Notes under the pieces: generated by a model
Databases searched by the model: none
Told to the model about the DNA's origin: nothing
What the model saw: only the letters and a program-made list of their open reading frames with translations
Part shown: positions 17,497-55,574 of the stretch, piece after piece
Numbering within the stretch: the stretch's first letter is position 1
Layout of the letters: each line of letters starts with the position of its first letter
Position numbers and translations under genes: made by a program
From: Candidatus Magasanikiibacteriota bacterium
GTDB taxonomy: Bacteria; Patescibacteriota; Patescibacteriia; Magasanikbacterales; GWA2-37-8
Reading direction: 5' to 3'
DNA length: 64,000 nt
Assembly (NCBI GenBank): GCA_963802255.1
Contig: CAWDHY010000002.1
Coordinates: 4,867 to 68,866, forward strand

Positions 17497-17536
17497 GTGT
17501 TTAAAAGGCAGGACAAGAGTCCTGCCCTTAATATTA

Positions 17537-17701: not shown

Positions 17702-17726
17702 ATATTCAATTAATTAATTTACTATG

Positions 17727-17808: not shown

Positions 17809-17823
17809 AACTTTGATACTGCG

Positions 17824-17896
17824 AGCCACCTGTCGGGCTCGGACCGACGACCTACGGTTTACAAAACCGTTGCTCTACCAGCTGAGCTAAGGTGGC
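17824..17896 (-). tRNA. tRNA-Thr (anticodon TGT)
   Basis: GCCACCT...AGGTGGC acceptor; anticodon arm ACGGT-TTTGTAA-ACCGT. Confidence 0.75.
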
Positions 17897-17922
17897 GAAT
17901 ATGGGCTTACTTTGTAAACCAG

Positions 17923-17995
17923 AGCCGTTGCGCGGATTTGAACCGCGGACCTACTCCTTACCATGGAGTTGCTCTACCAACTGAGCTACAACGGC
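17923..17995 (-). tRNA. tRNA-Thr (anticodon GGT)
   Basis: GCCGTTG/CAACGGC acceptor; anticodon arm ACTCC-ATGGTAA-GGAGT; T-loop TTCAAAT. Confidence 0.75.
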
Positions 17996-32136: not shown

Positions 32137-34383
32137 ATGAACCCTGCACTCCAATTAAACGAGTTTTTTGTTGAAGGCGACAATCAGGAGCTTTCGCATG
32201 TTTTATTGCATATCATACAGCCTTCTACTCCGGAAGAGGAAAAAGAAAAAGGCTATTTTTTTGTTGCTTGTGAAATAAATAACGGAGACAAAGAGGATGT
32301 ATTTAACTTGCAGGCTCTTATGGACCGGGTGGAAAATGACTATTACGAGATTCCGAATGAGCCAAATAAAGATTCATTGGAGATAATATTAGATAAAATC
32401 AATCACGACAATTTCGCATTAAACAGCCCTGATTCCGAATTGCATTGTCTGGTGGGGGCATTGCGCGGCAATGAATTGGTATTTTCTTTCTGCGGCCGGC
32501 CGGAAGCGATTCTGTTCTACAAAAATAAATCCGGCCAATTCCAAAAAATGGATTTGGTGGCTGCCAACGAAGAAGACGCCGATGAGGAGAAGCTTTTTTC
32601 ACAAATAATTCAGGGTCACGTCAGCTCAGGCGATTATTTTTTTGCCGGCACTTCACATATAGCGAGCTGTTTCAACCACGACCGTCTTCAAAAAATTGTA
32701 ACCGGCGGAAGAACCACCGAACAAAGCGCCGAACACTTTGAAAAAGTGCTTGCCGGTATAAAAAACGGTTATTCATTTGGCGGTCTGATAATGCATTTCG
32801 AACCGGACGTAAATATAGAAAAGGCTGATAAGATTTCCAGAGTTGCGAGTGAAAATACGATATTTAACGCTGAACAAAAAACCGCGCGTACCCTATCCCC
32901 TTCCCTTTTTGACAATTTGAACAATAAAGTAAATGAATCGGAAGATGACGAAAATAAAGATTCTACTGAAGAACATGAAAAAACCGCGATTCAAATTGCA
33001 TCCGCTCACCTTAGACAAAGACCAGTAGTAAAAACAGCTGAACCTATCGGAGAAAAAATATTTGTCATCTTAAAAATCATCGGAAAAGGTTTGCGCTATA
33101 TCGGATATGGTATATATTATTTTTTCTTCATTTTAGCGAAACTGGTTATCAATTTCGGCAGATTGATTATAATGCTCTTTCTTGTGGCCACCAATATTCA
33201 GAACCGACGCCGGGCCATTCTTGAATCATGGGGAGACAGTATAAAAACGTTTAAAAAGCGAATCCATCAGTTGCCCCTAATTACGAAGATTTTAGCTATT
33301 GCGTCAGTTATTTTTGCCATTGTTTTTGTTGGAAGTGTTTTGTATCTTCAGGCGCAAAAAAATCAGGCGGAAGAAAATAGGACTTACCTTGAAGGTCTTC
33401 AACTGGTAAAAAATAAAACTGATGCGGCAGAAAGCGCACTGATATATGGGGATGAAAATAGTGCAAAACAGCAGGCAAATGACGCAAAAAATTTAATGGC
33501 TACATTTGCATGCCAACCAACTGATACGCAAATTTGTGACGAAATATCCGAGCGTTTGTCCGCTCTCTCACAAAAGCTAAGCCGAATGGATATTGTTGAT
33601 ACAGCTATTATAGTCGATTGGGGGGCGCTTGGATTTAACGTAAGCGAAAAAATTCTTAAGGTAGAAAGTAAAATTATCGGTTTTTCTTCAAATACCTCAA
33701 CTATCGCGGTATATGATCTCTTAACCAAAGAAAGTAAATTTATCACTGCGTCGGAAAATATTTTTAGCGGATTCATTGCCGGCGCCGTGCCGAAAGAAAA
33801 TGATTATGCGGTTCTTCTCGCTTCAGATAAAAAATCAATTGCAATATTTGATCCAAAAACTTCAACCGTAAAAAAAGGCGAAATCAGCTACAGCGGAAAT
33901 CCTGAAATTAAAGCATTACTCATTTATAACAGACGCTTATATTCTTTGGACACTTTATCAAATCAGATTTACCGGCACGACAATATTAAAGACGGCTTCG
34001 GACAAGGAAAAAACTGGCTACAGGAGGCCGGTACCAATGTCCGCGAGGGTGTGGATATTGCCATAGATGGAGACCTTTATGTTCTTAAGTCAACCGGAGA
34101 ACTTATGAAGTTTGCCCAAGGAATACCACAACTGCTGAATCTTGAAACGCCGGAACCGCCGCTTGATTCGGCAAATGAAATTTGGACTTACACCGATTTT
34201 AATAGTATTTATTTGCTCGATGCAAAAAATAAGAGGATAATTATCTATGATAAAACCGGCAAGTTTTTAAGGCAGATGACAGCCGATGATTTTACCGGCC
34301 CAACATCTTTTGTTGTTGAAGAAGCTAAAAAAGATATTTTTGCGCTTGACTCGAACAAAGTATTACTGATTGAATTGAAATAA
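32137..34383 (+). CDS. Large membrane protein (748 aa): cytoplasmic N-domain, central TM helices, C-terminal beta-propeller-like (NHL/YVTN-like) repeat domain
   Basis: Hydrophobic segments at ~aa 305-350 and 380-405. The C-terminal ~300 aa contains repeated hydrophobic-x-IYD-like strands, e.g. SIYLLDAKNKRIIIYDKTGKFLRQM, KALLIYNRRLYSLD, DIAIDGDLYVLKS. Confidence 0.55.
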   Translation: MNPALQLNEFFVEGDNQELSHVLLHIIQPSTPEEEKEKGYFFVACEINNGDKEDVFNLQALMDRVENDYYEIPNEPNKDSLEIILDKINHDNFALNSPDSELHCLVGALRGNELVFSFCGRPEAILFYKNKSGQFQKMDLVAANEEDADEEKLFSQIIQGHVSSGDYFFAGTSHIASCFNHDRLQKIVTGGRTTEQSAEHFEKVLAGIKNGYSFGGLIMHFEPDVNIEKADKISRVASENTIFNAEQKTARTLSPSLFDNLNNKVNESEDDENKDSTEEHEKTAIQIASAHLRQRPVVKTAEPIGEKIFVILKIIGKGLRYIGYGIYYFFFILAKLVINFGRLIIMLFLVATNIQNRRRAILESWGDSIKTFKKRIHQLPLITKILAIASVIFAIVFVGSVLYLQAQKNQAEENRTYLEGLQLVKNKTDAAESALIYGDENSAKQQANDAKNLMATFACQPTDTQICDEISERLSALSQKLSRMDIVDTAIIVDWGALGFNVSEKILKVESKIIGFSSNTSTIAVYDLLTKESKFITASENIFSGFIAGAVPKENDYAVLLASDKKSIAIFDPKTSTVKKGEISYSGNPEIKALLIYNRRLYSLDTLSNQIYRHDNIKDGFGQGKNWLQEAGTNVREGVDIAIDGDLYVLKSTGELMKFAQGIPQLLNLETPEPPLDSANEIWTYTDFNSIYLLDAKNKRIIIYDKTGKFLRQMTADDFTGPTSFVVEEAKKDIFALDSNKVLLIELK

Positions 34384-35381: not shown

Positions 35382-35474
35382 AATGCAATTATTATATCAT
35401 ATTTTTATTGTCAAGCAAAATACCCTCAAATATGATTGTCTGGGGATAGATTATTGTGATATAATAATGTTGAT

Positions 35475-35999
35475 ATGAATCAAAATATAGCTGAAAAAAA
35501 CCTAACCCCGGGCCCAGAACCGGAGAATTTGTTAAAGCGTTCAGAAACGCCCGCTATTCATATGGAAGAAGAACCGTTAAAAGAGGCGGTTGAGGAACAG
35601 GAAAGTCTGGAAGAAATAAAGCAAACTGAAATAAAAGAAGGAGGAATTTTACCAAAACCTAAACAGCGCCGCCGAACATCTGTCACTCCGCCCACCCCTC
35701 GTGATGCGCTTACTGTCCAAGTTGAGGGTATTCTTGCCGCGGGGTTGAAAGATACTTATGAAAAATTACCGCCGATCGCCCAGCAGGAGTTTAAACTCAA
35801 GGGAGAAGAAACCGCTGGAAAAATCCGCGAGCTATTACGGTCAACCAAGATAAAAGTAAAAAAAATATTCCGCTTAATAATTGAATGGCTGATGCTTTTA
35901 CCAAGTGTAAATCATTTTTTTCTTGAACAGGAAGCAAAAATTAAAACCGATAAAATTATTGAACTTAAAAAGCTCGACAATGAAGGACCCCATAAATAA
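35475..35999 (+). CDS. Hypothetical protein (174 aa); acidic N-terminus, one C-terminal hydrophobic segment
   Basis: Extended -10 (TGaTATAAT) and a TTGTCA-17-TATGAT promoter directly upstream. Its stop is 9 nt before the coupling-protein-like gene. Confidence 0.45.
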   Translation: MNQNIAEKNLTPGPEPENLLKRSETPAIHMEEEPLKEAVEEQESLEEIKQTEIKEGGILPKPKQRRRTSVTPPTPRDALTVQVEGILAAGLKDTYEKLPPIAQQEFKLKGEETAGKIRELLRSTKIKVKKIFRLIIEWLMLLPSVNHFFLEQEAKIKTDKIIELKKLDNEGPHK

Positions 36000-36007: not shown

Positions 36008-38548
36008 ATGGACCAGATTGACTATTCAACTTTAGTTGCATCAAATTCTGATCTTATATTAATCCTGGCAGCCGCCGTTGGATCCATTTTAACTTTTATC
36101 ATTTTTTTAAATGTAATCAGAAAGATACTGCATGCTAAGGCTAAGACGAGCAAAGCATTTCACCGGACAGTTTTATTAATAAAAATTCCAAAGGAACGCG
36201 GCGGAGAAAAACAAGAATCCGGACAGGAAGATAATATCAATCAAATTCGCGAGCAGATAGCCATGGCCGAAACGCTTTTTTCCACCATTGCCGGATTATC
36301 TGCGGAAAAAGGTTTTATGGCCTGGTTAAGAGGAAGAAACGACCATTTGGCATTTGAGATCGTGGTTTCCAATGGAAAAATATCATTTTATGCGGCCATC
36401 CCCGACAAGTTAAAAGATTTTATTGGACAACAAATTCATGCCCAATATCCCCATTCGCAAATTACGGAGGAGTCCGATTACAATATTTTTAAACCCGACA
36501 GCCATATTGTCGGTGCATATCTGCATTTCAAATCACGCTCCGCCTTTCCGCTAAAGACATACAAACAACTGGAGAGCGATCCCCTACTCTCCCTTTTAAA
36601 TCCGCTGAGCAAATTATCCGAAAATGAAGGAGCGCTTATTCAATATGTAATCCGCCCGGCTCCGCCTGCATGGCGAAGCCAAGGAGTAAGCATGATAAGA
36701 GAAATTCGCGGAGGACAAAAATTTGAAAATGTTGCGAGCAGAAGCGGCGTGTCAAAATCCTTAAATAAATGGAAGAAATTTTTTTCAAGTGGAAAAAAAG
36801 ATAATTCAAAACAAGGGCCTGGCGCCACAGAGCCCTATCGCCTAACTCAGCAGGAAGAAGAAATGGTGAAAAGCATGGAAGAAAAATTAAGTTTAGGCGG
36901 ACTGGAGTTGACGATACGACTGGTCAGTTCAGCCCCAACTCGCGAAAAAGCAAAACTAATTTTAGAAAATTCTCTTAACTCTTTCAGTCAGTATAGCATC
37001 TACCGCTATGGTAACGCCCTAGGAGCATCAGTGCCTGCCAAACCGGGAAAACTTATCCGTGAATCAATTTATCGCTCACCACAGGAAAAGTATAATATGG
37101 TGGCAAGCACAGCTGAAATGGCAGGTTTTTGGCATTTGCCGCTACCTTCCACCGAAACACCTCATATCGACTGGCTAGGAGCACGAAAGGCCCCACCGCC
37201 GTTAAATATGCCGACTGAAGGCATTATCTTAGGCAGAACGCTTTACAGGGGCGAAGAAACGATTATCCGCATGACTCGATCCGACCGGCGTCGACATCTT
37301 TACACAATCGGTAAATCCGGCTCGGGCAAATCGGTATTTATACAGAATTTAGCGGTGCAGGACGTCCTAAATGGCGAAGGAGTTTGCGTTATTGACCCAC
37401 ATGGCGATTTTGCAGAGTACGTTTTGCAACATGTTCCCAAGGAACGGGCGGAAGATGTAATTTATTTTAATCCATCCGATGTTGATCGTCCGGTCGGCAT
37501 GAATATGCTTGAAATTAAAACCGAGGATCAAAAAGATTTCGCCACTCAAGAAATGATTTCAATTTTTTATAAAATGGTAACAGACCCCTCGATGATCGGC
37601 CCGATGTTCGAGCATAATATGCGCAACGTTATGCTGACATTAATGTCAGATATGGAAATGCCGGGAACGATCGCTGAAATTCCGCGTATGTTTACGGACG
37701 ACGCATTTGTTGAGTCATGGAAAAAGAAATTGAAAGACCCGGTGGTAATGTCATTCTGGGAAAAGGAAATGGCCAAAACATCCGACTTTCATAAATCGGA
37801 AATGCTTGGCTATCTCATTTCTAAAGTCGGACGCTTTACTGAAAATGCCATGATCCGAAATATTATCGGCCAATCACATTCGGGCTTTAATTTCCGCGAC
37901 GTCATGGACCAAAAAAAGATACTTTTGGTAAATCTGGCAAAGGGCTTGGTCGGCGAAATTAACGCCAATCTTCTCGGAATGATTATCGTATCAAAATTAC
38001 AAATGGCGGCCTTGGAACGCGCTTCATTGCCCGAAGAAGAACGACATGATTTTTATCTGTACATCGACGAGTTCCAAAACTTTATAACAGACTCGATCGC
38101 CACAATCCTTTCTGAAGCACGAAAATACCGTTTAGAGTTAATCATCGCCCATCAGTATATGAAACAACTGGAAGATAATAAAGGCAAAACAACAGTCCGC
38201 GACGCTGTGCTGGGTAATGCCGGTACATTGGTTTCATTCCGTATCGGAATTGAAGATGCAGAAATACTTCAAAAAGAATTTGCCCCGGTATTTTCAGCAT
38301 ATGATTTAATTAACGTAGAGCAATATACGGCCTATGTTAAATTGCTTATTGACAACACGGCAGCAAAACCGTTTAATATGATGACTTATCCGCCTCAGCC
38401 GGGAAACAAGGAGCTGGCTGCTGCCATTAAGGAGTTATCGAGGCTTAAATATGGCCGGCCGCGCGAAATTGTGGAAGCAGAAATACTTGAGAGATCCCAG
38501 CTCGGATCAGCTGTGCCTCAAAACACGATAAGCGAACAATCACTCTAA
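36008..38548 (+). CDS. TraD/TrwB/VirD4-family (type IV secretion coupling-protein-like) ATPase with an extra ~420-aa N-terminal domain
   Basis: Walker A GKSGSGKS (nt ~37311-37334), followed by VIDPHGDF and FNPSDVDRP (TrwB_AAD-like). Walker B YIDEFQNF. C-terminal HQYMKQL...GNAGTLVSFRIG matches the TraG/TraD C-terminal pattern. N-terminal TM helix (aa 15-35). Confidence 0.7.
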   Translation: MDQIDYSTLVASNSDLILILAAAVGSILTFIIFLNVIRKILHAKAKTSKAFHRTVLLIKIPKERGGEKQESGQEDNINQIREQIAMAETLFSTIAGLSAEKGFMAWLRGRNDHLAFEIVVSNGKISFYAAIPDKLKDFIGQQIHAQYPHSQITEESDYNIFKPDSHIVGAYLHFKSRSAFPLKTYKQLESDPLLSLLNPLSKLSENEGALIQYVIRPAPPAWRSQGVSMIREIRGGQKFENVASRSGVSKSLNKWKKFFSSGKKDNSKQGPGATEPYRLTQQEEEMVKSMEEKLSLGGLELTIRLVSSAPTREKAKLILENSLNSFSQYSIYRYGNALGASVPAKPGKLIRESIYRSPQEKYNMVASTAEMAGFWHLPLPSTETPHIDWLGARKAPPPLNMPTEGIILGRTLYRGEETIIRMTRSDRRRHLYTIGKSGSGKSVFIQNLAVQDVLNGEGVCVIDPHGDFAEYVLQHVPKERAEDVIYFNPSDVDRPVGMNMLEIKTEDQKDFATQEMISIFYKMVTDPSMIGPMFEHNMRNVMLTLMSDMEMPGTIAEIPRMFTDDAFVESWKKKLKDPVVMSFWEKEMAKTSDFHKSEMLGYLISKVGRFTENAMIRNIIGQSHSGFNFRDVMDQKKILLVNLAKGLVGEINANLLGMIIVSKLQMAALERASLPEEERHDFYLYIDEFQNFITDSIATILSEARKYRLELIIAHQYMKQLEDNKGKTTVRDAVLGNAGTLVSFRIGIEDAEILQKEFAPVFSAYDLINVEQYTAYVKLLIDNTAAKPFNMMTYPPQPGNKELAAAIKELSRLKYGRPREIVEAEILERSQLGSAVPQNTISEQSL

Positions 38549-38557: not shown

Positions 38558-40117
38558 ATGGCAACATTATACCGAAAATACCGTCCGCAAAAATTTGCCG
38601 ATCTTGTCGGTCAGGAACATCTGGTGCAAACTCTGACTAACGAAATCAGCTCGGGTAAAATTGCCCATGCTTATTTATTCTCCGGGCCTCGTGGCATCGG
38701 CAAAACAACAATGGCACGTCTTTTAGCTAAAGCGATTAATTGCGAAAATCATCGTGACGGTAAATTTGAGCCATGCGACGACTGTACATCATGCAAAGAA
38801 ATATCCGTTGCGCGTAATATTGACGTAATAGAAATTGATGCCGCCTCAAATACCGGCGTCGATAATGTAAGAGAAAATATTATTGACAATGCACAATTTA
38901 AACCGACAAAATCAAAATATAAAGTGTTTATCATTGACGAGGTTCACATGCTTTCCAGCAGTTCCTTCAATGCTCTGCTTAAAACCCTCGAAGAACCACC
39001 GGCTCACGTCATTTTTGTTCTGGCAACCACTGAACTTCAAAAGTTGCCCGCTACAATAATATCACGCTGCCAAAGATTTAACTTCAAAAAAATTCCTGAA
39101 GAAATAATGATGAAAAGGCTTGTCGAAATAGCTGAAGGCGAAAAAATTAAAATTGAAAAAGATGTTTTAAAACGGGTAATAACAAAAAGTGACGGTTGCA
39201 TGCGCGATGCGGAAAGTTTGCTGGGACAAATAATGTCGTTAAATCTGAAAAAAATCGGATCTGAAGACGCGGCCCAAATATTACCCACTGCCGATATTGA
39301 ATCTGCCCTTAATTATATTCAAGCTATTGCTGAAAAAAATCCTGGCAGAGCAATTTCAATTTTGGAAGAATTAGCGAAAGATGGCATGTCAATTGATCAA
39401 TTTGCCTTGGATGTAATTGATGTTTTACGGGCAACAATGATTGCCGAAACGGGAAGTACGGCATACGGTCTGGACTATACGGAAAAAGACAGAAAACAAC
39501 TGATGCCGCTGGCAAAAAAGTTAGGCAACCAATTATTAATCCCCCTTATCGATGCTGCATTAAAGCGTAAATCAGAAATTAAACAATCAACCGTTCCACA
39601 GTTGCCGATGGAACTTTTGGCGGTTGAATTCGGATCAGACAATGATGATGAGACGCCGAAAAATCCGCCGATAATTAAGCACATCGCGTCAGATGAGACG
39701 CCGGAAAATAGCGCGGAAAGTCAGCCGGGCATTTCAAATTCAAAAATTCACGAGCCGGAGAAGACTACAAGCACAACTTCAGCTTCTGAATCATTAACTA
39801 TTGAACAAATTTCAGAAAAATGGCAGGATGCAATAAGAATCCTATCGGAGAACTTTCCTTCACTTGTTTTCGTTCTAAAAATGGCAGAAATTTCAAGCGC
39901 CGGAAAGAATAAATTCAATCTTATGTTCCCTTACTCTTTTCACAAAGAAAAAGTAGAAGACAAAAAATGTCGGAGAGCGATTGAAGAAATAATGTCCGAT
40001 TTATTAAAACAAAAAATATCTTTTTCCTGTAGTGTAAGTGAACAGGAGGTAAAATCCGTTGAGGAAACGGATCTGTCAGGCATAGCTGCGCAATTTGGCG
40101 GTGAAGTTATCTCGTAA
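38558..40117 (+). CDS. dnaX: DNA polymerase III subunit gamma/tau
   Basis: HAYLFSGPRGIGKTT Walker A, zinc-binding CENHRDGKFEPCDDCTSC, clamp-loader sensor motifs; 519 aa. Confidence 0.9.
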   Translation: MATLYRKYRPQKFADLVGQEHLVQTLTNEISSGKIAHAYLFSGPRGIGKTTMARLLAKAINCENHRDGKFEPCDDCTSCKEISVARNIDVIEIDAASNTGVDNVRENIIDNAQFKPTKSKYKVFIIDEVHMLSSSSFNALLKTLEEPPAHVIFVLATTELQKLPATIISRCQRFNFKKIPEEIMMKRLVEIAEGEKIKIEKDVLKRVITKSDGCMRDAESLLGQIMSLNLKKIGSEDAAQILPTADIESALNYIQAIAEKNPGRAISILEELAKDGMSIDQFALDVIDVLRATMIAETGSTAYGLDYTEKDRKQLMPLAKKLGNQLLIPLIDAALKRKSEIKQSTVPQLPMELLAVEFGSDNDDETPKNPPIIKHIASDETPENSAESQPGISNSKIHEPEKTTSTTSASESLTIEQISEKWQDAIRILSENFPSLVFVLKMAEISSAGKNKFNLMFPYSFHKEKVEDKKCRRAIEEIMSDLLKQKISFSCSVSEQEVKSVEETDLSGIAAQFGGEVIS

Positions 40118-40960: not shown

Positions 40961-41034
40961 TCCGGGATCGTCTAATGGCAGGACTGCAGACTCTGAATCT
41001 GCATATCTTGGTTCGAATCCAAGTCCCGGAACCA
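40961..41034 (+). tRNA. tRNA-Gln (anticodon CTG) with encoded CCA
   Basis: Acceptor TCCGGGA/TCCCGGA, anticodon arm GCAGA-CTCTGAA-TCTGC, T-arm CTTGG-TTCGAAT-CCAAG, then ACCA and a T-run. Confidence 0.75.
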
Positions 41035-41141: not shown

Positions 41142-41774
41142 TTATTTTTTCGGAGCACCCGCTTTTTTTGCCGGTGTTTTTTTCTTAGCAACAGTTTTTT
41201 TTGCCAATGACTTAGGCTTTGCCGTCACTTTATTATTTTTTTTGATTTCATTTTTTTCTTCAACAATTTTCGTTGCTTCTTTTTCCTTTTTTCCGCCTCC
41301 CAATGCCTGCAAAATTTGATCGAGCTTAACGTTTAATACAGCAAACTGCTGTTTAATATTTTCACCGCCTTTTTCTTGTGATCCTCCGGCGCTATTCTTT
41401 CCAAAACAAGCATCACAAAATACCGACTTTCCCGGCATTGGTTTAAAAGGTACTCGACACTTTGTTCCGCATTTAGCGCAAACTGTCTCGTGCATTTGTT
41501 TATCATCACGTGGTCTTCCCTGTCTTTCACCGCCAAATCTACTATTTGACCTATCATTGCTGCCACCACCTTGTCTGTCAAAACAAGCACTGCAAAAAAC
41601 AGGCCTATCACCTGTTGGCTTAAAAGGAATTTCACATTCTTTACCGCATTTACTGCAGATTGCCTGATGCATTTGCGTCCTACCGCCGCCAAAACCGCCT
41701 CTATTACCCCCGCCGAATGGCCTTCCGCCAAATCTGCTTCCTCCCGGTCTATTACTTCGGTTAAAATCTCCCAT
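41142..41774 (-). CDS. Nucleic-acid-binding-like protein: RGG/FGG-rich N-terminus, two tandem CxxC-x12-CxxC zinc ribbons, Lys-rich histone-H1-like tail
   Basis: Start at the internal Met (MGDFNRSNRPGG...). Repeats QAICSKCGKECEIPFKPTGDRPVFCSACF and ETVCAKCGTKCRVPFKPMPGKSVFCDACF. Tail KKTVAKKKTPAKKAGAPKK. Confidence 0.6.
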   Translation of the reverse strand: MGDFNRSNRPGGSRFGGRPFGGGNRGGFGGGRTQMHQAICSKCGKECEIPFKPTGDRPVFCSACFDRQGGGSNDRSNSRFGGERQGRPRDDKQMHETVCAKCGTKCRVPFKPMPGKSVFCDACFGKNSAGGSQEKGGENIKQQFAVLNVKLDQILQALGGGKKEKEATKIVEEKNEIKKNNKVTAKPKSLAKKTVAKKKTPAKKAGAPKK

Positions 41775-41903
41775 ATATTTGTATAAATGAGTTATAAATA
41801 CTGTAAATCGTAGTCTATCACAGTTTATATAAAAAATCAATGGTCAGCCTTGTTCATGGAGAATATTGCTTTCCCTGCATCCAACATGATATTCTATATT
41901 CAT

Positions 41904-42599: not shown

Positions 42600-43503
42600 G
42601 CTCATCCAAAGTATTTACCCGCACTAATTTAGCGCGTAGTTTTTTTATACCGAAAATTTCATTGATCCGGTCTCCATGAAAATACCACGCGAGATGTTTT
42701 CTGAAGGACGTCATTCCCCTCTCACCGTAATGTTTAACATGAAGCTCAGCATGACGAATTACGGTGTCAATTATTTGGCTCATTTCTGCGTGATTATTAT
42801 TTGTATTCAATATCCATGGATTGCCAAGCGCCCCTCTGCCTATCATCACACCATCAGCACCGGTTATTTGCAGACAATTAAGAATATCTTCTTTAGTTCG
42901 AATATCACCGTTTGCCAATAGAGGTATTGAAAGCGTTTTTTTAACTTCTGCGATTCTCCGCCAATTGGCCTGTCCTGAATATCCTTGAATTTTTGTTCTG
43001 CCATGAACAGCAATCAAATCAATACCGGCATTTTCTAATCGTTTAGAAAAATCAAAAATTTCATCATCCCGGCTCCAGCCAAGACGCGTCTTTGCGGAAA
43101 GTGGCACACCGATATTTTCTTTTTTTATAGCCTCGACAATTTTTATCGCTAAATCCGGATGACGCATCAAAGACGCTCCGGCTTTTGTTTTATGTGCAAC
43201 TTTTGGTACCGGACATCCCATGTTAATATCAATACCATCTGGTTTAAAACTATCGACAATTAATCGCGCGGCTTTAGCCATTGTCAAAGGATCATCGCCA
43301 AATATCTGAATAATAACAGGATGCTCTTTCCCCATGATTTCGCACATGCGTAATGTTTTTTCATTACATCGCACTATCGCCGCAGAGCTCACCATTTCAC
43401 GGTAAATTACAAAATCATTACCGCTGATTTCACGGCATAATAAACCAAAAGGCCGATCGGTATAGTCGGCCATTGGAGCAAGGGCAATAATAGATTTAGG
43501 CAT
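42574..43503 (-). CDS. dusB: tRNA-dihydrouridine synthase
   Basis: ALAPMADYTDRPFGLLCRE, NMGCPVPKV FMN/TIM-barrel motifs. Start set at MPKSII to remove the poly-Arg N-terminal read-through. Confidence 0.85.
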   Translation of the reverse strand: MPKSIIALAPMADYTDRPFGLLCREISGNDFVIYREMVSSAAIVRCNEKTLRMCEIMGKEHPVIIQIFGDDPLTMAKAARLIVDSFKPDGIDINMGCPVPKVAHKTKAGASLMRHPDLAIKIVEAIKKENIGVPLSAKTRLGWSRDDEIFDFSKRLENAGIDLIAVHGRTKIQGYSGQANWRRIAEVKKTLSIPLLANGDIRTKEDILNCLQITGADGVMIGRGALGNPWILNTNNNHAEMSQIIDTVIRHAELHVKHYGERGMTSFRKHLAWYFHGDRINEIFGIKKLRAKLVRVNTLDELKTILSSL

Positions 43504-44875
43504 AAGGTAAATCTTCCGGCGCCGGCGCCTTCGGCTTTTCTTCTTTATTTTGATCAACCGCCTTTGATTTTAAAGGCATGGTAAAATGCTCTACCGGTAA
43601 ATTTATTGGTGGTTCGCCACGTTTAATATTTGCTTTCTGGATCAACGGAGTTTTAACCAGCGGTAATGGAAAATGCCAGATAGTAGCCAGTTCTTCAATG
43701 TTAAGAATATACGGGTCATTGGTAAATTTTAGCGCACGATTTTTATAAGCTGATACGATGTTTTGACCGCTAATTATCTTCGCCTTAAAACCATTGCGGT
43801 TGTTTATATAAAATTGATTCATGGCACCGATTAAACCCTGGACGCATTTATGCGGTTTGAATAATTCATTTTTCGCGGCATATAAGACGCGTACTCTGGA
43901 TTTAAACCCAAGTTTTGATATTTTATCTTCAATAGATTCAATTACCGCTCTTGCTCCCGGCGTTAAGTCGGATACTTTTCCCACAGTTTCTTCCTTCTTT
44001 TTTTTCTCTTCTTCGGCGCTAAAATCATATTTCCATGCCTGGATAGCTGTTTTTAACACCCATTCCGGCGCACTCCCAACCATACTAACTAAGCCGTTTT
44101 TCTTCGGCTCTTTTTTATTGGCAACTATTTTCTTAACCAAATCAATACCATCTTTTTTCCAGCTATTATCAACCGGTAAGACAACAATTTGCATCCATAA
44201 ATGTTCACCCGGCCCAATGCGGGAAAAATTTTCCAATATGGCGGCCATAGGATCGGTAAATACGACATCTTTGGAAATAGTATACTCGAATTCAGAATAA
44301 ACCCGGATTGGATATACGTCACTTTCCGCTAAACTAAACTCCGCGCCTTGCGCATCATATTCGGAATTGGGAAATGTCTCCGGTATCATTGAAACATAAT
44401 CTTCAACTTCAGTAATTTCCGCTTCCGAATACTGGGCATAAATTGCCGCTTCAACTAAATCTCGAAAAGATACTTCGGTGCGCACAACAAATTGTATATA
44501 CCCTTCGACACTGATAATTTCGAAACTAAACCATTTCGGCAGTTTCCCCTCAAAGTACCTTTCATAAACATTATAATTTACTTGTGCGCCACTCAAATGT
44601 ACAAAAATTTGTTCAACCGCTTTTGGCGATTGGACAAACTCTGCCGGAATATCCACCGCAAGCACGGTCCATTGCCAAGTTTTTAAGTACTCCTTCTGTT
44701 TAAACAACATCCATTCGTCAAGCGCTTTTTTAAATAAAAAAATTGCGATTAGCCACCATACTAAAATCGCAAAAATTGCTTTTGCCATTTCAAAAGGAGG
44801 CAATGACAAAAATGTCTGCCAAAAAGACAAATTAATACTGAAGCCAAACGGTGTTTCAAAAAGCCACGGCTCCAT
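43496..44875 (-). CDS. Stand-alone paralog of the N-terminal domain of the 36008..38548 coupling-protein-like gene (no ATPase domain)
   Basis: Two N-terminal TMs, then a body colinear with aa 1-420 of the 846-aa protein, e.g. IWHFPLPLVKTPLIQKANIKRGEPPINLP versus FWHLPLPSTETPHIDWLGARKAPPPLNMP, and FEIISVEGYIQFVV versus FEIVVSNGKISFYAA. Confidence 0.6.
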   Translation of the reverse strand: MEPWLFETPFGFSINLSFWQTFLSLPPFEMAKAIFAILVWWLIAIFLFKKALDEWMLFKQKEYLKTWQWTVLAVDIPAEFVQSPKAVEQIFVHLSGAQVNYNVYERYFEGKLPKWFSFEIISVEGYIQFVVRTEVSFRDLVEAAIYAQYSEAEITEVEDYVSMIPETFPNSEYDAQGAEFSLAESDVYPIRVYSEFEYTISKDVVFTDPMAAILENFSRIGPGEHLWMQIVVLPVDNSWKKDGIDLVKKIVANKKEPKKNGLVSMVGSAPEWVLKTAIQAWKYDFSAEEEKKKKEETVGKVSDLTPGARAVIESIEDKISKLGFKSRVRVLYAAKNELFKPHKCVQGLIGAMNQFYINNRNGFKAKIISGQNIVSAYKNRALKFTNDPYILNIEELATIWHFPLPLVKTPLIQKANIKRGEPPINLPVEHFTMPLKSKAVDQNKEEKPKAPAPEDLPYA

Positions 44876-51030: not shown

Positions 51031-53070
51031 TCAGCGTTTAACCATAATTCTGACATCCACAATATCAGCGCCGTCCGGCCTGGCCATAACAGGGTTAAAA
51101 TCAATTTCCATTATATTTCTATGTTTCTCCGCTATTTTTGATATTGCCACGATAATCTTTGCCAGATAGCGCGTGTCAACCGGCTGTTCACCCCGCACCC
51201 CTTGTAAAATCGCATTGGCCTTTATTTCACTAATCATGGCCAACGCGTCAACCTCATTTACCGGTGAAATACGCATTGAAGCGTCTTTTAGCGTTTCCAC
51301 GAAAATACCGCCTAAGCCAAAAACAATTACCGGACCAAATGACGGATCACGCTTCATTCCAATAATCACTTCCCTGCCCGACGACATCGGCTGAATAATA
51401 AAACCGTCAATTTTAACTCCGGGCATTTTTTTTGTAACAGCAGACGAAATTTCCAGCCAGGCCTTTTCCGATTCAGCCAGACTATTTATATTAACTCGCA
51501 CCCCGCCTAAATCTGATTTATGTATGATCTGTTCTGAAACCACCTTCATCGCCCAAGGAAATCTGATTTTATCCGAGCATCTTCGGAGATTTTCTTTTTT
51601 GGTCACAAAATCACCTGATATTTTTAGACCCTGCTGATAAAGGATGGCGGCACATTCATTAAAACGCAGCTGACGCGTCGATGGGGCCGCAAATGTTGAA
51701 ATATTTTCATTTATATTTATTTTCTTTTTAACTGCTGTTGCTAATAGAGAAACTGCTTCAACCGCGGCATGAGGATCAATAAAATTAATTAAACCATGTT
51801 TTGCAAATATTTTTTCAGCTTCATCAGCTGACGCCCCGCCGATAAAAATCGGAATAATTGGAATTTTTTTGGCGTATTTTGCCACTACAGCCGCGGTTTC
51901 TTTAACTTGTGTCATTTTTTGCGGAGTTAGAATAACCATTATTCCTTTAACATTTTTATCGGCTGATAAAATTTTCAAGGCCGCTTCGTAACGGTCAGCT
52001 AACGCATCTCCAATTATATCCACGGGGTTATTCAGCGCCGCCGTAACCGGTAATACTTTACTTAATTTATTTTTTAGAGAGTCGTTCGGAGAATATAAGC
52101 CTAAATTTGAGGTAGCTTCAATTAAATCAGCGGTAACAATTGACGGCCCGCCGCCATTTGTCAGCACTACCCATTCATTGGGGGCCCGGAACAAACCGGT
52201 ATTTAACAACTTTGCTAAATTAAACATGGATCCCAGCGAATCCACAAGGATAGCACCGCTCTGACGGCAAGCAGTTCGAAAAATTTCATGAGATGGAGCC
52301 AGCGAACCGGTATGAGACGATACTGCTTTTACGCCCCTTTCGGATAAACCGGCTTTTAAAATTATAACGGGTTTTTTCGAGGAAATTCTTTTTACCTGTC
52401 GCATAAATTTTTTCCCATCTGTAATGCCTTCCAGATACATAAGAATTGCCGAAGTATCCCGGTCCTTGCTAAGATATGCCAAAAAATCATTCTCTGTCAC
52501 GCCGGCTTCATTACCAATGGAAACAAATTTTGAAAATCCGACATTATTTTTCATTGCCCAATCAAGCATGGCCGTACCAACCGCTCCCGATTGGGAAACA
52601 AAAGCCATATCGCCTTTTTTGGGCATCGTCTCACTGCCAAAAGTGGCATTCAAATTACTTGCCGTGTCTAATACTCCAAGACAATTTGGACCGACGATAT
52701 TAATTTTATACTTTTTTGCGATGACCTTCAGTTCTTTTTCCCGTTCCACGCCCACCCCGCCAATTTCCTTAAAACCCGCCGTAATAATAATAACATTAAA
52801 AATTTTTTTCTCACCGCAATCTTTTAATACTAAAGGTACAATTTCCGGTTTGACCGCTATGATGGCGAGATCAATTTTGCCTTTAACCTTTAAAACCGAA
52901 GAAAAACAATGAAGACCCATGACTTTCTTGAAAGACGGGTTTACCGGTATGACTTTCCGTTTTTTATTCTGAAGTAAATTGTTTACAATCGCGTATCCGA
53001 GTTTTTTAGGATCATCGGCCGCGCCGATTACCGCTACCGCCCTCGGATTAAAAAGATATTTTAAATTCAT
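51031..53070 (-). CDS. Acetyl-CoA synthetase (ADP-forming), fused alpha-beta (acetate--CoA ligase family)
   Basis: N-terminal CoA-binding (AVAVIGAADDPKKLGY), succinyl-CoA-synthetase-like and ATP-grasp regions; 679 aa. Confidence 0.8.
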   Translation of the reverse strand: MNLKYLFNPRAVAVIGAADDPKKLGYAIVNNLLQNKKRKVIPVNPSFKKVMGLHCFSSVLKVKGKIDLAIIAVKPEIVPLVLKDCGEKKIFNVIIITAGFKEIGGVGVEREKELKVIAKKYKINIVGPNCLGVLDTASNLNATFGSETMPKKGDMAFVSQSGAVGTAMLDWAMKNNVGFSKFVSIGNEAGVTENDFLAYLSKDRDTSAILMYLEGITDGKKFMRQVKRISSKKPVIILKAGLSERGVKAVSSHTGSLAPSHEIFRTACRQSGAILVDSLGSMFNLAKLLNTGLFRAPNEWVVLTNGGGPSIVTADLIEATSNLGLYSPNDSLKNKLSKVLPVTAALNNPVDIIGDALADRYEAALKILSADKNVKGIMVILTPQKMTQVKETAAVVAKYAKKIPIIPIFIGGASADEAEKIFAKHGLINFIDPHAAVEAVSLLATAVKKKININENISTFAAPSTRQLRFNECAAILYQQGLKISGDFVTKKENLRRCSDKIRFPWAMKVVSEQIIHKSDLGGVRVNINSLAESEKAWLEISSAVTKKMPGVKIDGFIIQPMSSGREVIIGMKRDPSFGPVIVFGLGGIFVETLKDASMRISPVNEVDALAMISEIKANAILQGVRGEQPVDTRYLAKIIVAISKIAEKHRNIMEIDFNPVMARPDGADIVDVRIMVKR

Positions 53071-53837
53071 ATTTGTTCTTCAAATACCGGTTTATCGGTT
53101 TCATAAATTACACCAAGCGGAATCTTCCCGGAATTTTCGCGAATTTTTTGCATTGCTTTGTTCCAATCATTTGTCGGCCAATTCTGGTCAAGATAAAAAA
53201 CTTTGTCTTTAAAATCTGCCCTGGTGTCGCTGAAAGTAATACAGGGCTGAATAATATCCACGATAGAAAAACCTTTGTGTTTTATTGCGCGCTTCATTAT
53301 CCCCCCTAGCTTATCAGTGTCCAGTGCCCATGCGCGCGCAATAAATGTTGCGCCAGAAGCGAGCATTATCGCAAGCGGATTAAGAGGTTCTTCATGACTG
53401 CCGAACGGAGTGGAACGGCCTCGGTATCCCTTGGGGCTGGTTGGGGTAACTTGCCCAGTGGTCAAACCAAAAACTTGATTATTATGTACAAATAAAGTGA
53501 CATTGGTATTTCGCTTTGCCGCGTGCACCAGATGTTCCATTCCTTCTGCATAGGCATCACCATCTCCGGCAAAAGAAATTACTGTTAAATTGGGGTTGCC
53601 TGCTTTAATACCTTCGGCTGAAGCAACATCGCGGCCATGCAAAGACATAAAACTGTTAATATTTACGAAGTCGGGAATTTTCCCATGGCAGCCAATGCCT
53701 GCAACCATGACAAAATTATCTTTTGAATAGCCTTCTATCACTAAATCGTTTAGCGCATTTTTAAAGGCGGCTAAAATAGAAAAATTAGTGCAACCGGGAC
53801 ACCATGTATTTTTTGCTTTTGTGGAAAAATCTATCAT
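53067..53837 (-). CDS. 2-oxoacid:ferredoxin oxidoreductase, beta (TPP-binding) subunit
   Basis: TPP-binding GDGD...N motif region ([43 protein letters not shown]). Overlaps the downstream ACD gene by 4 nt. Confidence 0.8.
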   Translation of the reverse strand: [256 protein letters not shown]

Positions 53838-53875
53838 ATTTAACCTAATATTAAAAATTTAATTAACAGGAAGAA

Positions 53876-55564: not shown

Positions 55565-55574
55565 AAAATATCAA

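What the first reader, a model, noticed from the sequence alone, without database searches (positions are those of the whole stretch)
36008..38548. Coupling-protein-like (TraD/TrwB/VirD4 family) ATPase fused to a large N-terminal domain, with no other T4SS genes nearby
The C-terminal half carries a Walker A (GKSGSGKS) followed by VIDPHGDF and FNPSDVDRP, and the C-terminal HQYMKQL...GTLVSFRIG block. These are the hallmarks of type IV secretion coupling proteins. Its Walker A sits at about residue 435, far later than in canonical VirD4/TraD proteins, which have two short N-terminal TMs and the P-loop at ~150-200. An extra ~400-aa module therefore precedes the ATPase. Within this window no VirB4, VirB6, relaxase, pilin or other T4SS component is recognisable. 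The flanking genes are dnaX, a CorA-like transporter, a 174-aa unknown and a 748-aa beta-propeller membrane protein. This could be an orphan or repurposed coupling ATPase (DNA or protein translocation, or surface-structure export) in a reduced genome. A remote VirB3-VirB4-type fusion is the alternative reading, since VirB4 proteins do have Walker A near residue 440.
Basis: partly seen in the sequence, partly recalled or inferred. Interest (0 to 1): 0.72.

Follow-up and report, generated by a model that had tools for sequence, protein, structure and literature searches.

The report
Coupling ATPase with VirB4-like N-domain
This gene encodes a membrane-anchored type IV secretion 'coupling' ATPase whose extra front half folds like the front half of the other secretion ATPase, VirB4. 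It is a conserved core gene of the tiny symbiotic Patescibacteria, and its apparent counterpart in the one genetically tractable species cannot be disrupted.

Summary
ORF 36008-38548 (+) encodes 846 aa with every quoted motif, and no T4SS gene lies in the window.

- **C-terminal half (about 411-755):** a T4CP (VirD4/TrwB) ATPase by sequence, not a VirB4.
- **Distribution:** at least 598 species-representative genomes across all major Patescibacteria lineages, inherited vertically. It is never next to virB4. A small, fast-evolving ORF usually sits just upstream.
- **Outside the phylum:** the same DUF8128 + T4CP pair sits inside real T4SS clusters, fused on an actinobacterial plasmid and split on haloarchaeal plasmids.
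- **T4SS elsewhere:** close relatives carry a VirB3-TrsD-VirB4 cluster elsewhere, so 'orphan' describes position, not the genome.
- **Essentiality:** by eight-gene synteny the Southlakia counterpart is SEML1_0142, scored essential in published Tn-seq. The paralogue SEML1_0293 is dispensable.

Most likely it is the detached coupling/motor ATPase of the domesticated monoderm-type T4SS. The orphan T4CP was already noted in 2025. I found no report of the VirB4-like fold of DUF8128 or of the link to essentiality.

The parts
36008..38548 (+). Complete gene for the 846-aa TM-DUF8128-T4CP-like ATPase
   Evidence: ORF. Domain hits. Homologues with the same architecture.
36053..36115 (+). Single N-terminal transmembrane helix (residues about 16-36). 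Basic residues follow it, which implies that the rest of the protein is cytoplasmic.
   Evidence: Kyte-Doolittle scan finds one hydrophobic segment, 9-42, peak 2.88. The AF2 model shows a helix at 14-50. The topology is inferred from the positive-inside rule.
36155..37222 (+). DUF8128 (PF26449) domain, residues about 50-405. It is two ferredoxin-like alpha+beta units with a helical insert and has a VirB4 N-terminal-domain-like fold. It ends in the conserved W-H-x-P-L-P motif (residues 375-380).
37238..38272 (+). T4CP-type nucleotide-binding domain with an all-alpha insert (residues about 411-755)
   Evidence: Pfam T4SS-DNA_transf at 411-754 and TrwB_AAD_bind at 422-745. hhalign to TrwB residues 115-393, probability 96.2, E 2e-9.
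37310..37333 (+). Walker A, GKSGSGKS (residues 435-442)
   Evidence: G435, G438, G440 and K441 are invariant in 26 diverse members.
38054..38128 (+). Walker B, YLYIDEFQNF (683-692), and the SEARKY motif (702-707)
   Evidence: D687, E688, Q690, E703, A704, R705 and K706 are invariant. The region aligns with the TrwB Walker B / GRK region.
35475..35999 (+). 174-aa ORF ending 8 nt before the ATPase gene: a putative partner. It has a disordered acidic N-part and a conserved helical C-part of about 95 aa.
   Evidence: Conserved in Magasanikbacteria relatives. A same-strand small ORF sits directly upstream in most related loci, in lineage-specific sequence clusters. No Pfam match.
35436..35465 (+). 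Promoter-like site, TTGTCT-18-TATAAT with an upstream TG, in front of the 174-aa ORF
   Evidence: This is a consensus match only.
38558..40117 (+). dnaX (DNA polymerase III tau/gamma), starting 9 nt after the ATPase stop codon and probably co-transcribed. It is a syntenic neighbour, not a functional part.
   Evidence: A dnaX homologue was found in 31 of 84 related loci, usually directly or a few genes downstream.
43496..44875 (-). Stand-alone DUF8128 paralogue (459 aa, one TM helix, no ATPase), directly downstream of secA-secD-secF
   Evidence: BLASTP 8e-23 over residues 19-404 of the fused protein. PF26449 only, 1,671 homologues. The same position after secD-secF in L004.

Best explanation
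The gene encodes a single-pass, membrane-anchored ATPase of the FtsK/HerA superfamily. Its C-terminal motor is a type IV coupling protein (VirD4/TrwB type: nucleotide-binding domain plus all-alpha domain). Its cytoplasmic N-terminal domain (DUF8128) has the fold of the VirB4 N-terminal domain.

In VirB4 that domain joins protomers into dimers, embeds in the membrane and contacts VirB3 and VirB8. My inference is that DUF8128 takes the place of the usual two-helix T4CP anchor as an oligomerisation and docking module. It would attach an ATP-driven, presumably hexameric, motor to the inner-membrane platform of the chromosomal monoderm-type (MPF-FATA-derived) T4SS of Patescibacteria.

The small protein encoded just upstream would act as an adaptor or regulator. 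In this lineage the stand-alone DUF8128 paralogue may be a further partner.

The gene has been separated from the virB4 cluster, is inherited vertically as a phylum-wide core gene, and appears to be required for growth.

- **Shown:** the domain identities, the fold match, the taxonomic distribution, the synteny, and membership of T4SS clusters in Actinobacteria and haloarchaea.
- **Inferred:** hexamer formation, docking through the N-domain, cooperation with the Patescibacterial T4SS, and the nature of the substrate.
For: **1. T4CP identity of the motor**
- Pfam TrwB_AAD_bind, T4SS-DNA_transf and TraG-D_C score above the gathering threshold. TrwB_AAD_bind matches 26 of 26 diverse family members and CagE_TrbE_VirB matches none.
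- A PDB sequence search returns TrwB at 6.4e-9 and DotL at 2.2e-5, and no VirB4.
- hhalign to TrwB gives probability 96.2 over 273 columns; hhalign to TrwK gives 8.9.
- Walker A, Walker B and the EARK motif are invariant.

**2. N-domain fold**
- The model has pLDDT 87.9.
- The top 14 Foldseek hits are all TrwK chains.
- No P-loop ATPase (TrwB, FtsK, VirB4 C-terminal domain) appears among the hits, so the match is to the VirB4 N-terminal domain and not to its ATPase domain.

**3. The same architecture inside real T4SS clusters**
- An Embleya plasmid carries PrgI, a VirB4-like ATPase, an 812-aa TM-DUF8128-T4CP, Replic_Relax and NlpC/P60 in a row. BLASTP to the window protein is 4e-70 over residues 90-816. 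hhalign of its N-part to the DUF8128 profile gives probability 98.4.
- A haloarchaeal plasmid carries a VirB6-like gene, a 1,105-aa conjugal transfer ATPase, a stand-alone DUF8128 (probability 99.2) and a T4CP-like gene in a row.

**4. A phylum-wide, vertically inherited orthogroup**
- At least 598 species genomes hold it. The neighbour-joining tree follows the lineages.

**5. A T4SS elsewhere in relatives**
- Close relatives have VirB4/TrsD/VirB3 elsewhere (PMC12102498 Tables S1 and S3).
- The Southlakia T4SS cluster lacks a recognisable coupling protein (PMC10633639).

**6. Essentiality**
- Saccharimonadia family members share eight-gene synteny with SEML1_0138-0146.
- SEML1_0142 is scored ES/ES/ES and its upstream 139-aa gene SEML1_0141 GD/ES/ES.
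- The window protein is closer to this clade (601 bits) than to the clade I equate with the dispensable SEML1_0293 (471-501 bits).
Against: - No T4SS gene lies in the window or was seen in the 84 related loci. The only direct test was phmmer with TrwK, which found nothing, and that is a weak test for divergent VirB4.
- The survey found T4CP homologues in more genomes (2,918) than VirB4 (2,417 of 3,035), and only 148 of 5,713 lie near virB4. MAG incompleteness blurs these numbers.
- Relaxases are nearly absent from the phylum (109 in 103 genomes). The classical T4CP job of coupling a relaxosome to the channel therefore cannot apply as such.
- The syntenic neighbours are DNA-replication genes (dnaX, gyrB/gyrA), which would also suit a DNA-handling role independent of the T4SS.
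- The ATPase half of the full-length AF2 model is of low confidence (pLDDT about 45). No structural statement about the motor is possible.
- The link to SEML1_0142 rests on synteny and gene sizes, not on its sequence.
- The presence of virB4 in this particular genome could not be checked.
Confidence: 0.55

Rival explanations
1. A DNA translocase that works without the T4SS, or only loosely with it. It would import DNA, for example host DNA as a source of nucleotides, or handle chromosomal DNA at the membrane. The analogy is the archaeal Ced import ATPases CedB and CedD, which are built as TM, VirB4-NTD-like domain and HerA/VirB4-type ATPase.
For: [quoted passage not shown]
- NCBIfam gives weak local CedD and CedB hits at 2.6e-5 and 4.7e-4.
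- The neighbours are conserved DNA-replication genes: dnaX in 31 of 84 loci, and gyrB/gyrA in Saccharimonadia.
- T4CP homologues occur in more genomes than VirB4 does.
- Patescibacteria lack nucleotide synthesis, and ComEC-dependent uptake is dispensable in Southlakia, so another import route has been postulated.
Against: - The NCBIfam scores for CedD and CedB lie far below their cut-offs and cover only the P-loop region.
- The motor is T4CP-like, not HerA/CedB-like.
- Outside the phylum the same architecture sits in conjugation-type clusters with a relaxase-like gene.
- A canonical, essential FtsK exists in Southlakia, so this is not a replacement for the segregation translocase.
- Gene neighbourhood in reduced genomes is weak evidence.
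Confidence: 0.2
2. A VirB4-like assembly ATPase. The protein would use its VirB4-type N-domain to energise assembly of a surface filament (VirB2-like pili) or extraction or insertion of envelope proteins. It would not recruit substrates. The stand-alone DUF8128 paralogue would serve as a non-catalytic outer-ring subunit.
For: - The N-domain fold equals the VirB4 NTD, which mediates VirB4 dimerisation and membrane contacts (PMC12857230).
- Patescibacterial T4SS loci carry arrays of VirB2-like pilins.
- The stand-alone DUF8128 gene sits right after secA-secD-secF, here and in L004.
- In relatives, type IV pilus genes (PilM, a pilin, prepilin peptidase) lie 5-8 kb upstream.
Against: - The ATPase half fails every VirB4 profile test.
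- The same genomes already encode a separate VirB4 plus TrsD.
- Sec adjacency was seen only in this lineage.
- No direct evidence exists for any substrate.
Confidence: 0.12
3. An ordinary coupling protein left behind by an integrated conjugative element or plasmid: a mobile-element remnant with no host function.
For: - Its closest characterised relatives are plasmid and ICE T4CPs.
- The first 8 kb of the window has a different G+C content (0.47 against 0.40), so foreign DNA is present on the contig.
Against: - The gene's G+C (0.43) is close to that of its flanks (0.39).
- There is no integrase, relaxase or MPF gene nearby.
- Homologues within the candidate class are 72-90% identical, and synteny with CorA and dnaX is conserved.
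- The phylogeny follows the lineages across the phylum.
- The catalytic motifs are invariant.
- The apparent Southlakia counterpart is essential.
Confidence: 0.03

Closest known systems
Type IV coupling proteins (VirD4 / TrwB of R388 / TraD / DotL; Pfam PF10412, PF02534, PF12696)
   Same: - The nucleotide-binding domain with Walker A and B, the 'RH-x5-G-x-G-x-GKS ... DP-x-GD' signature, the E-A/G-RK motif and an all-alpha insert.
- Profile-level homology across about 270-300 columns.
- Membrane anchoring at the N-terminus.
   Different: - One TM helix instead of two.
- A 370-aa cytoplasmic DUF8128 domain lies between the anchor and the motor, so Walker A is at residue 435 rather than about 130-200.
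- The gene is chromosomal, vertically inherited and distant from MPF and relaxase genes.
- The phylum almost entirely lacks relaxases.
VirB4 (TrwK of R388; PDB 7o42, 7o41, 8rtd)
   Same: - The overall two-part plan: an N-terminal alpha+beta domain of about 400 aa followed by a FtsK/HerA-superfamily ATPase of about 420 aa.
   Different: - Only 7-9% sequence identity in the N-domain. No hit to PF03135 or PF11130 and none to TrwK by hhalign.
- The ATPase half is T4CP-like, not VirB4-like.
- It has its own TM helix rather than relying on VirB3.
DUF8128-T4CP proteins of monoderm and archaeal conjugation-type clusters (Embleya sp. plasmid NZ_CP108778.1, WP_331738717.1; haloarchaeal plasmids such as Halomontanus rarus NZ_CP135526.1)
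   Same: - Embleya: the same TM-DUF8128-T4CP architecture, with Walker A at residue 428, and full-length homology (4e-70).
- Haloarchaea: DUF8128 and a T4CP-like ATPase as adjacent, overlapping genes.
   Different: - Those genes lie next to VirB4-like, VirB3/PrgI-like or VirB6-like genes, a relaxase-like gene and a cell-wall hydrolase gene on plasmids.
- The window gene is detached and chromosomal.
- None of these proteins has, to my knowledge, been characterised experimentally.
CedB / CedD of the crenarchaeal Ced DNA-import system
   Same: The architecture TM + VirB4-NTD-like domain + FtsK/HerA-superfamily ATPase, in a T4SS-derived machine that is not used for plasmid conjugation (PMC11868833).
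   Different: - The Ced ATPase domains belong to the HerA/VirB4 side of the superfamily, whereas this one is T4CP-like.
- NCBIfam scores of 23 and 19 bits are far below the cut-offs of 600 and 700.
- CedB and CedD each cover only part of the VirB4 NTD.
TrsD/TraD of pGO1/pSK41 and Patescibacterial TrsD (PF11130-type, encoded next to virB4)
   Same: A protein related to the VirB4 N-terminal portion and encoded separately from an ATPase. This parallels the stand-alone DUF8128 paralogue.
   Different: - No detectable sequence relationship: hhalign of the DUF8128 profile against pSK41 TrsD gives probability 0.2.
- TrsD sits beside virB4; the DUF8128 paralogue sits beside secDF.

Membership tests
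Type IV coupling protein (VirD4/TrwB/TraD) | Nucleotide-binding domain matched by curated T4CP profiles above threshold | tested here: met
   PF10412 40.3 bits (GA 20.5), PF02534 38.9 bits (GA 20.1), PF12696 28.2 bits (GA 22). PF10412 matches 26 of 26 family members. TrwB is the best PDB sequence match.
Type IV coupling protein (VirD4/TrwB/TraD) | All-alpha domain inserted between Walker A and Walker B | tested here: inconclusive
   The sequence alignment spans TrwB residues 115-393, which include its all-alpha domain. Residues 506-671 are predicted helical. That part of the AF2 model has pLDDT about 45, so the fold itself is not confirmed.
Type IV coupling protein (VirD4/TrwB/TraD) | Short N-terminal anchor of two TM helices directly before the NBD | tested here: not met
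   One hydrophobic segment only, followed by a 370-aa DUF8128 domain.
Type IV coupling protein (VirD4/TrwB/TraD) | Encoded with MPF or relaxase genes and working with them | tested here: not met
   None seen in the window or in the 84 related Patescibacteria loci. The feature is met for the actinobacterial and haloarchaeal homologues. Functional coupling cannot be tested with these tools.
Type IV coupling protein (VirD4/TrwB/TraD) | Hexameric, DNA-stimulated ATPase | not testable with these tools
   Only the conservation of the catalytic motifs can be shown.
VirB4 (CagE/TrbE/TraC) | N-terminal domain with the VirB4 NTD fold | tested here: met
VirB4 (CagE/TrbE/TraC) | Sequence match to VirB4 profiles (PF03135, PF12846/PF19044, TIGR00929) | tested here: not met
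   PF03135 matches 0 of 26 members. AAA_10 scores 13.5 bits (GA 27.5), P-loop_TraG 12.6 bits and TIGR00929 14.3 bits (cut-off 643). hhalign to TrwK gives probability 8.9.
VirB3-VirB4 fusion | VirB3-like segment with two TM helices fused in front of VirB4 | tested here: not met
   A single TM helix. No PrgI or VirB3 Pfam hit. The upstream 174-aa ORF has no TM segment (maximum KD 1.33).
DUF8128 (Pfam PF26449) | Match to the PF26449 model | tested here: met
   The identical protein P0001 and all 120 listed homologues carry PF26449.1 in the precomputed annotation. The name DUF8128 appears. The model is absent from the local Pfam copy, so I did not rescore it.
CedB/CedD (Ced DNA import) | Score above the NCBIfam equivalog cut-off | tested here: not met
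   CedD 23.1 bits (cut-off 600) and CedB 18.9 bits (cut-off 700), local to the P-loop. Only the architecture is shared.
FtsK/SpoIIIE | FtsK motor profile plus a gamma domain | tested here: not met
   PF01580 14 bits (GA 24) and no gamma domain. Southlakia has a separate canonical FtsK.
TrsD/TraD (pGO1/pSK41) | Sequence homology to TrsD | tested here: not met
   hhalign of the DUF8128 profile against pSK41 TrsD gives probability 0.2.

The most novel reading that the evidence does not exclude
The DUF8128-T4CP would be the missing, essential motor of the Patescibacterial T4SS. It would run the system in a non-conjugative mode, for instance pulling host DNA or other macromolecules into the epibiont, as Ced does, to supply nucleotides.

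In evolutionary terms it could be a surviving intermediate between VirB4 and VirD4: a T4CP-type motor that still carries the VirB4-type N-domain. That would imply that canonical T4CPs arose from a VirB4-like ancestor by losing this domain.
Probability: 0.15. Interest if true: 0.85.

Novelty: new variant of a known kind. Interest (0 to 1): 0.58.

Why it matters
Patescibacteria make up a large share of bacterial diversity and live attached to other microbes. Their chromosomal T4SS is the first T4SS shown to be essential for its bearer, yet its substrate and its coupling protein are unknown.

- **A concrete candidate for the missing motor.** This protein family is conserved across the phylum. Homologues in Actinobacteria and haloarchaea sit inside T4SS clusters. 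Its apparent Southlakia counterpart (SEML1_0142) is scored essential together with its small upstream gene.
- **A possible correction to the literature.** The published remark that the Southlakia t4cp is dispensable fits the paralogue SEML1_0293, not this clade.
- **A structural assignment for a domain of unknown function.** DUF8128 has the fold of the VirB4 N-terminal domain. This suggests how a coupling ATPase could dock on a monoderm or archaeal T4SS platform, and it bears on how VirB4 and VirD4 diverged.

All functional statements remain computational inferences.

Tried and rejected
1. **Full-length AlphaFold model.** Only residues 10-390 were confident. The ATPase half (pLDDT about 45) was unusable, so I made no structural VirB4-versus-VirD4 comparison of the motor.
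2. **afdb50 fold library.** It was not available.
3. **Sequence-level link between DUF8128 and the VirB4 NTD.** I found none. Pfam at E up to 10 on 23 members gave nothing. hhalign to TrwK and to pSK41 TrsD gave nothing. The relationship rests on predicted structure only.
4. **Scan of genome contigs with the diverse DUF8128 alignment A4.** It failed because no stretch was conserved enough. I repeated the scan with the full-length alignment A5.
5. **Unifying the small upstream ORFs of different lineages.** jackhmmer and hhalign between clusters 2, 5, 18 and the Microgenomatia set found no homology. They are positional analogues or have diverged beyond detection.
6. **Looking up the source contig.** No DNA was returned, so I could not check virB4 in this genome. 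I used relatives from the published tables instead.
7. **Southlakia rows in the T4SS survey.** They are not in the stored part of the supplement, so which t4cp those authors meant is inferred.
8. **Considered and rejected:**
   - FtsK replacement: a canonical essential FtsK exists.
   - Mobile-element remnant: vertical inheritance and conserved synteny argue against it.
   - True VirB4: the profile tests fail.
9. **First neighbour-joining tree run.** It timed out and I redid it with faster MAFFT settings. The tree is a quick distance tree, not a rigorous phylogeny.


Full report
**1. The observation**

The window holds a single ATG-to-stop ORF at 36008-38548 (+) of 846 aa. Walker A (GKSGSGKS) is at 435-442, VIDPHGDF at 461-468, FNPSDVDRP at 487-495, HQYMKQL at 715-721 and GTLVSFRIG at 739-747. 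A Walker B (YLYIDE) is at 683-688.

Pfam places TrwB_AAD_bind (2.5e-10), T4SS-DNA_transf (6.5e-10), DUF87 and TraG-D_C on residues 411-755, all above their gathering scores. Nothing in the local Pfam copy matches residues 1-405. NCBIfam's best hits are T4CP families (SXT_TraD, CD1115). VirB4 families score only locally at the P-loop.

There is one hydrophobic segment, at about residues 16-36, followed by basic residues. By the positive-inside rule the rest of the protein should be cytoplasmic.

The neighbours are as described: CorA-like, a 174-aa unknown, dnaX, and a 748-aa membrane/beta-propeller protein. I recognised no T4SS component among the ORFs of the 64-kb window.

**2. The organism and the family**

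An identical protein is on record on a 255-kb contig. The 119 next-best homologues are 72-90% identical, 805-857 aa long, and come from Candidatus Magasanikbacteria / Patescibacteria. [quoted passage not shown]

All of them carry a newer Pfam family, PF26449, in front of the T4CP domains. Gene tables from related contigs name it DUF8128.

The 80 loci kept span these groups:
- Magasanik-, Uhr-, Falkow-, Komeili-, Buchanan- and Doudnabacteria
- Staskawicz-, Portnoy-, Berkel- and Moranbacteria
- Saccharibacteria
- Levy-, Davies-, Curtiss- and Woesebacteria
- Peregrini-/Peribacteria

These relatives are 38-67% identical over residues about 15-835.

An exhaustive search with the N-domain alone found 1,746 clusters at 50% identity. 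Most hits long enough to judge continue into the same ATPase. Some have long unknown C-terminal extensions, up to 1,842 aa.

The ATPase half is better conserved (50-65% identity) than the N-domain (28-40%). Walker A, Walker B, the EARK motif and a Q are invariant in 26 diverse members. A quick neighbour-joining tree follows the organismal lineages, which indicates vertical inheritance.

**3. The C-terminal half is a T4CP, not a VirB4**

| Test | T4CP result | VirB4 result |
|---|---|---|
| Family profile against PDB sequences | TrwB 6.4e-9, DotL 2.2e-5 (then weak HerA hits) | none |
| hhalign, R388 proteins | TrwB probability 96.2, E 2e-9, 273 columns (TrwB residues 115-393, NBD plus all-alpha domain) | TrwK probability 8.9 |
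| hhalign, pSK41 proteins | TrsK matched over 297 columns | TrsE matched over 108 columns, around Walker B only |
| Pfam on 26 diverse members | TrwB_AAD_bind 26, TraG-D_C 25, T4SS-DNA_transf 17 | CagE_TrbE_VirB 0 |

**4. The N-terminal half folds like the VirB4 N-terminal domain**

An AlphaFold model of residues 1-408 was built on an alignment of fused and stand-alone DUF8128 proteins. It has pLDDT 87.9 and pTM 0.85. It shows a long TM helix followed by two ferredoxin-like alpha+beta units with a helical insert.

- Foldseek's top 14 hits are all TrwK chains, with probability 1.00 and E from 1.9e-5 to 1.9e-3.
- No P-loop ATPase appears in either list (no TrwB, FtsK or VirB4 C-terminal domain). 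A match to TrwK's ATPase domain would have brought those in. The match is therefore to the VirB4 N-terminal domain.
- No sequence method recovers this relationship. It rests on a predicted structure.

According to a recent review, the VirB4 NTDs join the two protomers of each dimer, embed in the membrane, and contact VirB3 and VirB8 (PMC12857230).

The protein is architecturally VirB4-like, with a T4CP-type ATPase.

**5. The architecture is not confined to Patescibacteria**

tblastn of the ATPase half against plasmids found 594 records.

*Embleya sp. (Actinomycetota) plasmid.* The hit is an 812-aa protein with one TM helix and Walker A at residue 428. It aligns with the window protein over residues 90-816 (BLASTP 4e-70, 27% identity). 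Its N-part matches the DUF8128 profile (hhalign probability 98.4, E 7.7e-15). It sits in this cluster:
- a PrgI-family (VirB3-like) protein
- an XF1762-family protein
- a VirB4-like ATPase (P-loop_TraG, AAA_10, TraC_F_IV)
- this T4CP
- a Replic_Relax protein
- an NlpC/P60 hydrolase

*Haloarchaeal plasmids.* DUF8128 is a separate gene overlapping the start of a T4CP-like gene. In Halomontanus rarus the order is:
- TrbL/VirB6-like
- a 1,105-aa 'conjugal transfer protein'
- DUF8128, 391 aa (hhalign probability 99.2, E 2.5e-19)
- T4CP-like, 1,026 aa

DUF8128 + T4CP is therefore a module of monoderm and archaeal conjugation-type T4SS clusters. This fits the published conclusion that the Patescibacterial T4SS derives from the MPF-FATA class (PMC12102498).

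**6. Context in Patescibacteria**

Phmmer with TrwK found no VirB4 in any of 84 related loci, and no other T4SS gene stood out.

Recurrent neighbours:
- dnaX, found in 31 of the 84 loci, usually directly or a few genes downstream.
- In the ABY1-type loci, an unknown protein of about 210 aa.
- In most loci, a same-strand ORF of 120-200 aa directly upstream.

The gap to that upstream ORF is often only a few nucleotides, and the two genes sometimes overlap by 4 nt.

These small proteins fall into lineage-specific sequence clusters with no detectable mutual homology. They share a plan: a disordered acidic or proline-rich N-part and a conserved helical C-part. None has a Pfam match.

In the window, a promoter-like site (35436-35465) precedes the 174-aa ORF. 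The 174-aa ORF, the ATPase gene, dnaX, a C39-like peptidase gene and tRNA-Gln then follow with gaps of about 8-10 nt. This suggests one transcription unit.

The published survey found 5,713 T4CP homologues in 2,918 of 3,035 genomes. Only 148 were near virB4, and the authors noted possible exaptation. Its tables score the genome of locus L004 as VirB4-positive; that genome shares the window's synteny and its orthologue is about 75% identical. They also show Magasanikbacteria with a VirB3-TrsD-VirB4 cluster elsewhere and two T4CP homologues each.

A T4SS elsewhere in this genome is therefore likely, though I could not test it.

**7. Essentiality**

The Tn-seq tables for Southlakia epibionticum (PMC10633639) list two T4CP-like proteins with N-extensions of about 400 aa.

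| Protein | Length | Tn-seq call | Insertion data | Notes |
|---|---|---|---|---|
| SEML1_0142 | 1,019 aa | ES/ES/ES | 114 input insertions, 11/11/9 recovered | Upstream 139-aa SEML1_0141 is GD/ES/ES |
| SEML1_0293 | 921 aa | NE/NE/NE | Normalised reads fall 5817 to 1372 | PF10412 at residues 402-719 |

Neither protein is discussed in the paper's text.

The Saccharimonadia family members from my scan (L068, L072, L076) have exactly the neighbourhood of SEML1_0138-0146:
- YifB (-)
- a gene of about 117 aa (+)
- a gene of about 139 aa (+)
- the target (+)
- a gene of about 190 aa (-)
- a gene of about 600 aa (-)
- gyrB (+)
- gyrA (+)

They carry PF26449.

A divergent clade B (L039_7, L043_13, L053_2) is preceded by a 346-aa protein that looks sigma-factor-like. 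That assignment comes from reading its sequence; I ran no Pfam scan on it. The arrangement resembles SEML1_0294/0293.

The window protein scores 601 bits against the SEML1_0142-type clade and 471-501 bits against clade B. I therefore infer that the window protein belongs to the orthogroup whose Southlakia member is essential. I also infer that the 'non-essential t4cp' cited in the survey is the paralogue.

Southlakia also has a canonical essential FtsK. Its T4SS cluster lacks a recognisable coupling protein.

**8. Mechanism**

Best supported: a membrane-anchored, presumably hexameric, T4CP-type motor whose DUF8128 domain serves as the oligomerisation and docking module on the inner-membrane platform of the domesticated T4SS. 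The small upstream protein would be an adaptor. In this lineage the stand-alone DUF8128 paralogue (43496-44875, beside secDF) would be a possible extra subunit.

- **Shown:** domain identities, the fold match, distribution, synteny, and membership of T4SS clusters outside the phylum.
- **Inferred:** docking, hexamer formation, cooperation with the T4SS, and the substrate.

Rivals:
- A Ced-like DNA-import or DNA-handling motor. CedB and CedD share the TM + VirB4-NTD-like + ATPase plan (PMC11868833).
- A VirB4-like assembly ATPase.
- A mobile-element remnant, which the evidence contradicts.

**9. Novelty and verdict**

Already on record:
- The family is annotated (PGAP names, Pfam DUF8128).
- Its orphan position in Patescibacteria was published in 2025.

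Not found in the papers I searched and read:
- the VirB4-NTD-like fold of DUF8128
- the presence of the same module in actinobacterial and haloarchaeal T4SS clusters
- the two-clade structure of the family
- the link of clade A to an essential Southlakia gene

I rate it a new variant of a known kind, of moderate to good interest to T4SS and CPR specialists. All functional claims still need experiment.

Noticed in passing
window 43496-44875 (-): A stand-alone 459-aa DUF8128 protein with one TM helix and no ATPase. It is a paralogue of the N-half of the finding (22% identity, 8e-23) and lies directly downstream of secA-secD-secF and upstream of a dus gene. The same placement after secD-secF occurs in L004. 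It has 1,671 homologues, all annotated 'hypothetical'.
   Followed up: partly
window 35475-35999 (+); related loci L006-L085, ORF directly upstream of the target: A small ORF (120-200 aa), often only a few nt upstream or overlapping by 4 nt, precedes the ATPase gene in most lineages. These ORFs fall into sequence clusters with no detectable mutual homology. All have a disordered acidic or Pro-rich N-part and a conserved helical C-part. The Southlakia positional equivalent, SEML1_0141, is scored essential.
   Followed up: partly
L039 12223-15444, L043 13624-16551, L053 3587-6163, L060 10328-11146: A second, divergent DUF8128-T4CP paralogue (clade B, 858-1,073 aa) is encoded in tandem or a few genes downstream of the main copy in some lineages. 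In L039 and L043 it is preceded by a 346-aa protein that looks sigma-factor-like by eye. This probably corresponds to the dispensable SEML1_0293.
   Followed up: partly
proteins P0341, P0355, P0375, P0378, P0383 (1,694-1,842 aa) and L082 (1,568 aa): Some family members carry C-terminal extensions of 200 to 1,000 residues beyond the ATPase. These extensions have no Pfam match.
   Followed up: no
window 1-8000: The first 8 kb has G+C 0.46-0.47 against about 0.40 for the rest. By reading the translations, it encodes a PIF1/RecD-like helicase (2180-3571, -), a LexA-like repressor (3769-4341, +) and a DinB-like Y-family polymerase (4344-5642, +). Many overlapping spurious ORFs are also present. It may be an acquired island or a join to foreign DNA.
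   Followed up: no
window 32137-34383 (+); L054, L055 (cluster 33): A 748-aa protein with central TM segments and a C-terminal beta-propeller (DUF5128, 1.6e-5). Homologues were detected in 8 of the 84 related loci. In L054 and L055 a related protein of about 800 aa on the opposite strand lies right next to the ATPase gene.
   Followed up: no
window 17425-17995 (-), 40961-41034 (+), 61961-62045 (-): A tRNA cluster (Trp, Tyr, Thr-TGT, Thr-GGT). A tRNA-Gln lies directly after the C39-like peptidase gene, closing the putative operon. A tRNA-Leu overlaps the annotated start of a 101-aa ORF.
   Followed up: no
window 41142-41840 (-): A 232-aa Gly/Arg-rich protein with two treble-clef zinc fingers (PF23477, 1.4e-30) and a lysine-rich tail.
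   Followed up: no
loci L006, L009, L019, L020, L024, L051, L054 and others: Many TPA MAG records titled 'uncultured Gammaproteobacteria', 'Bdellovibrionales' or 'Candidatus Saccharibacteria' carry orthologues that cluster inside ABY1- or Paceibacteria-type clades with the matching synteny. Those record titles look like placeholder or wrong taxonomy.
   Followed up: partly
window 51031-58890 (-): By reading the translations, a run of fermentative energy genes: ADP-forming acetyl-CoA synthetase-like (51031-53070), two 2-oxoacid:ferredoxin oxidoreductase subunits (53067-55564), an [FeFe]-hydrogenase-like protein (55575-57374) and a NuoF-like protein (57904-58890).
   Followed up: no
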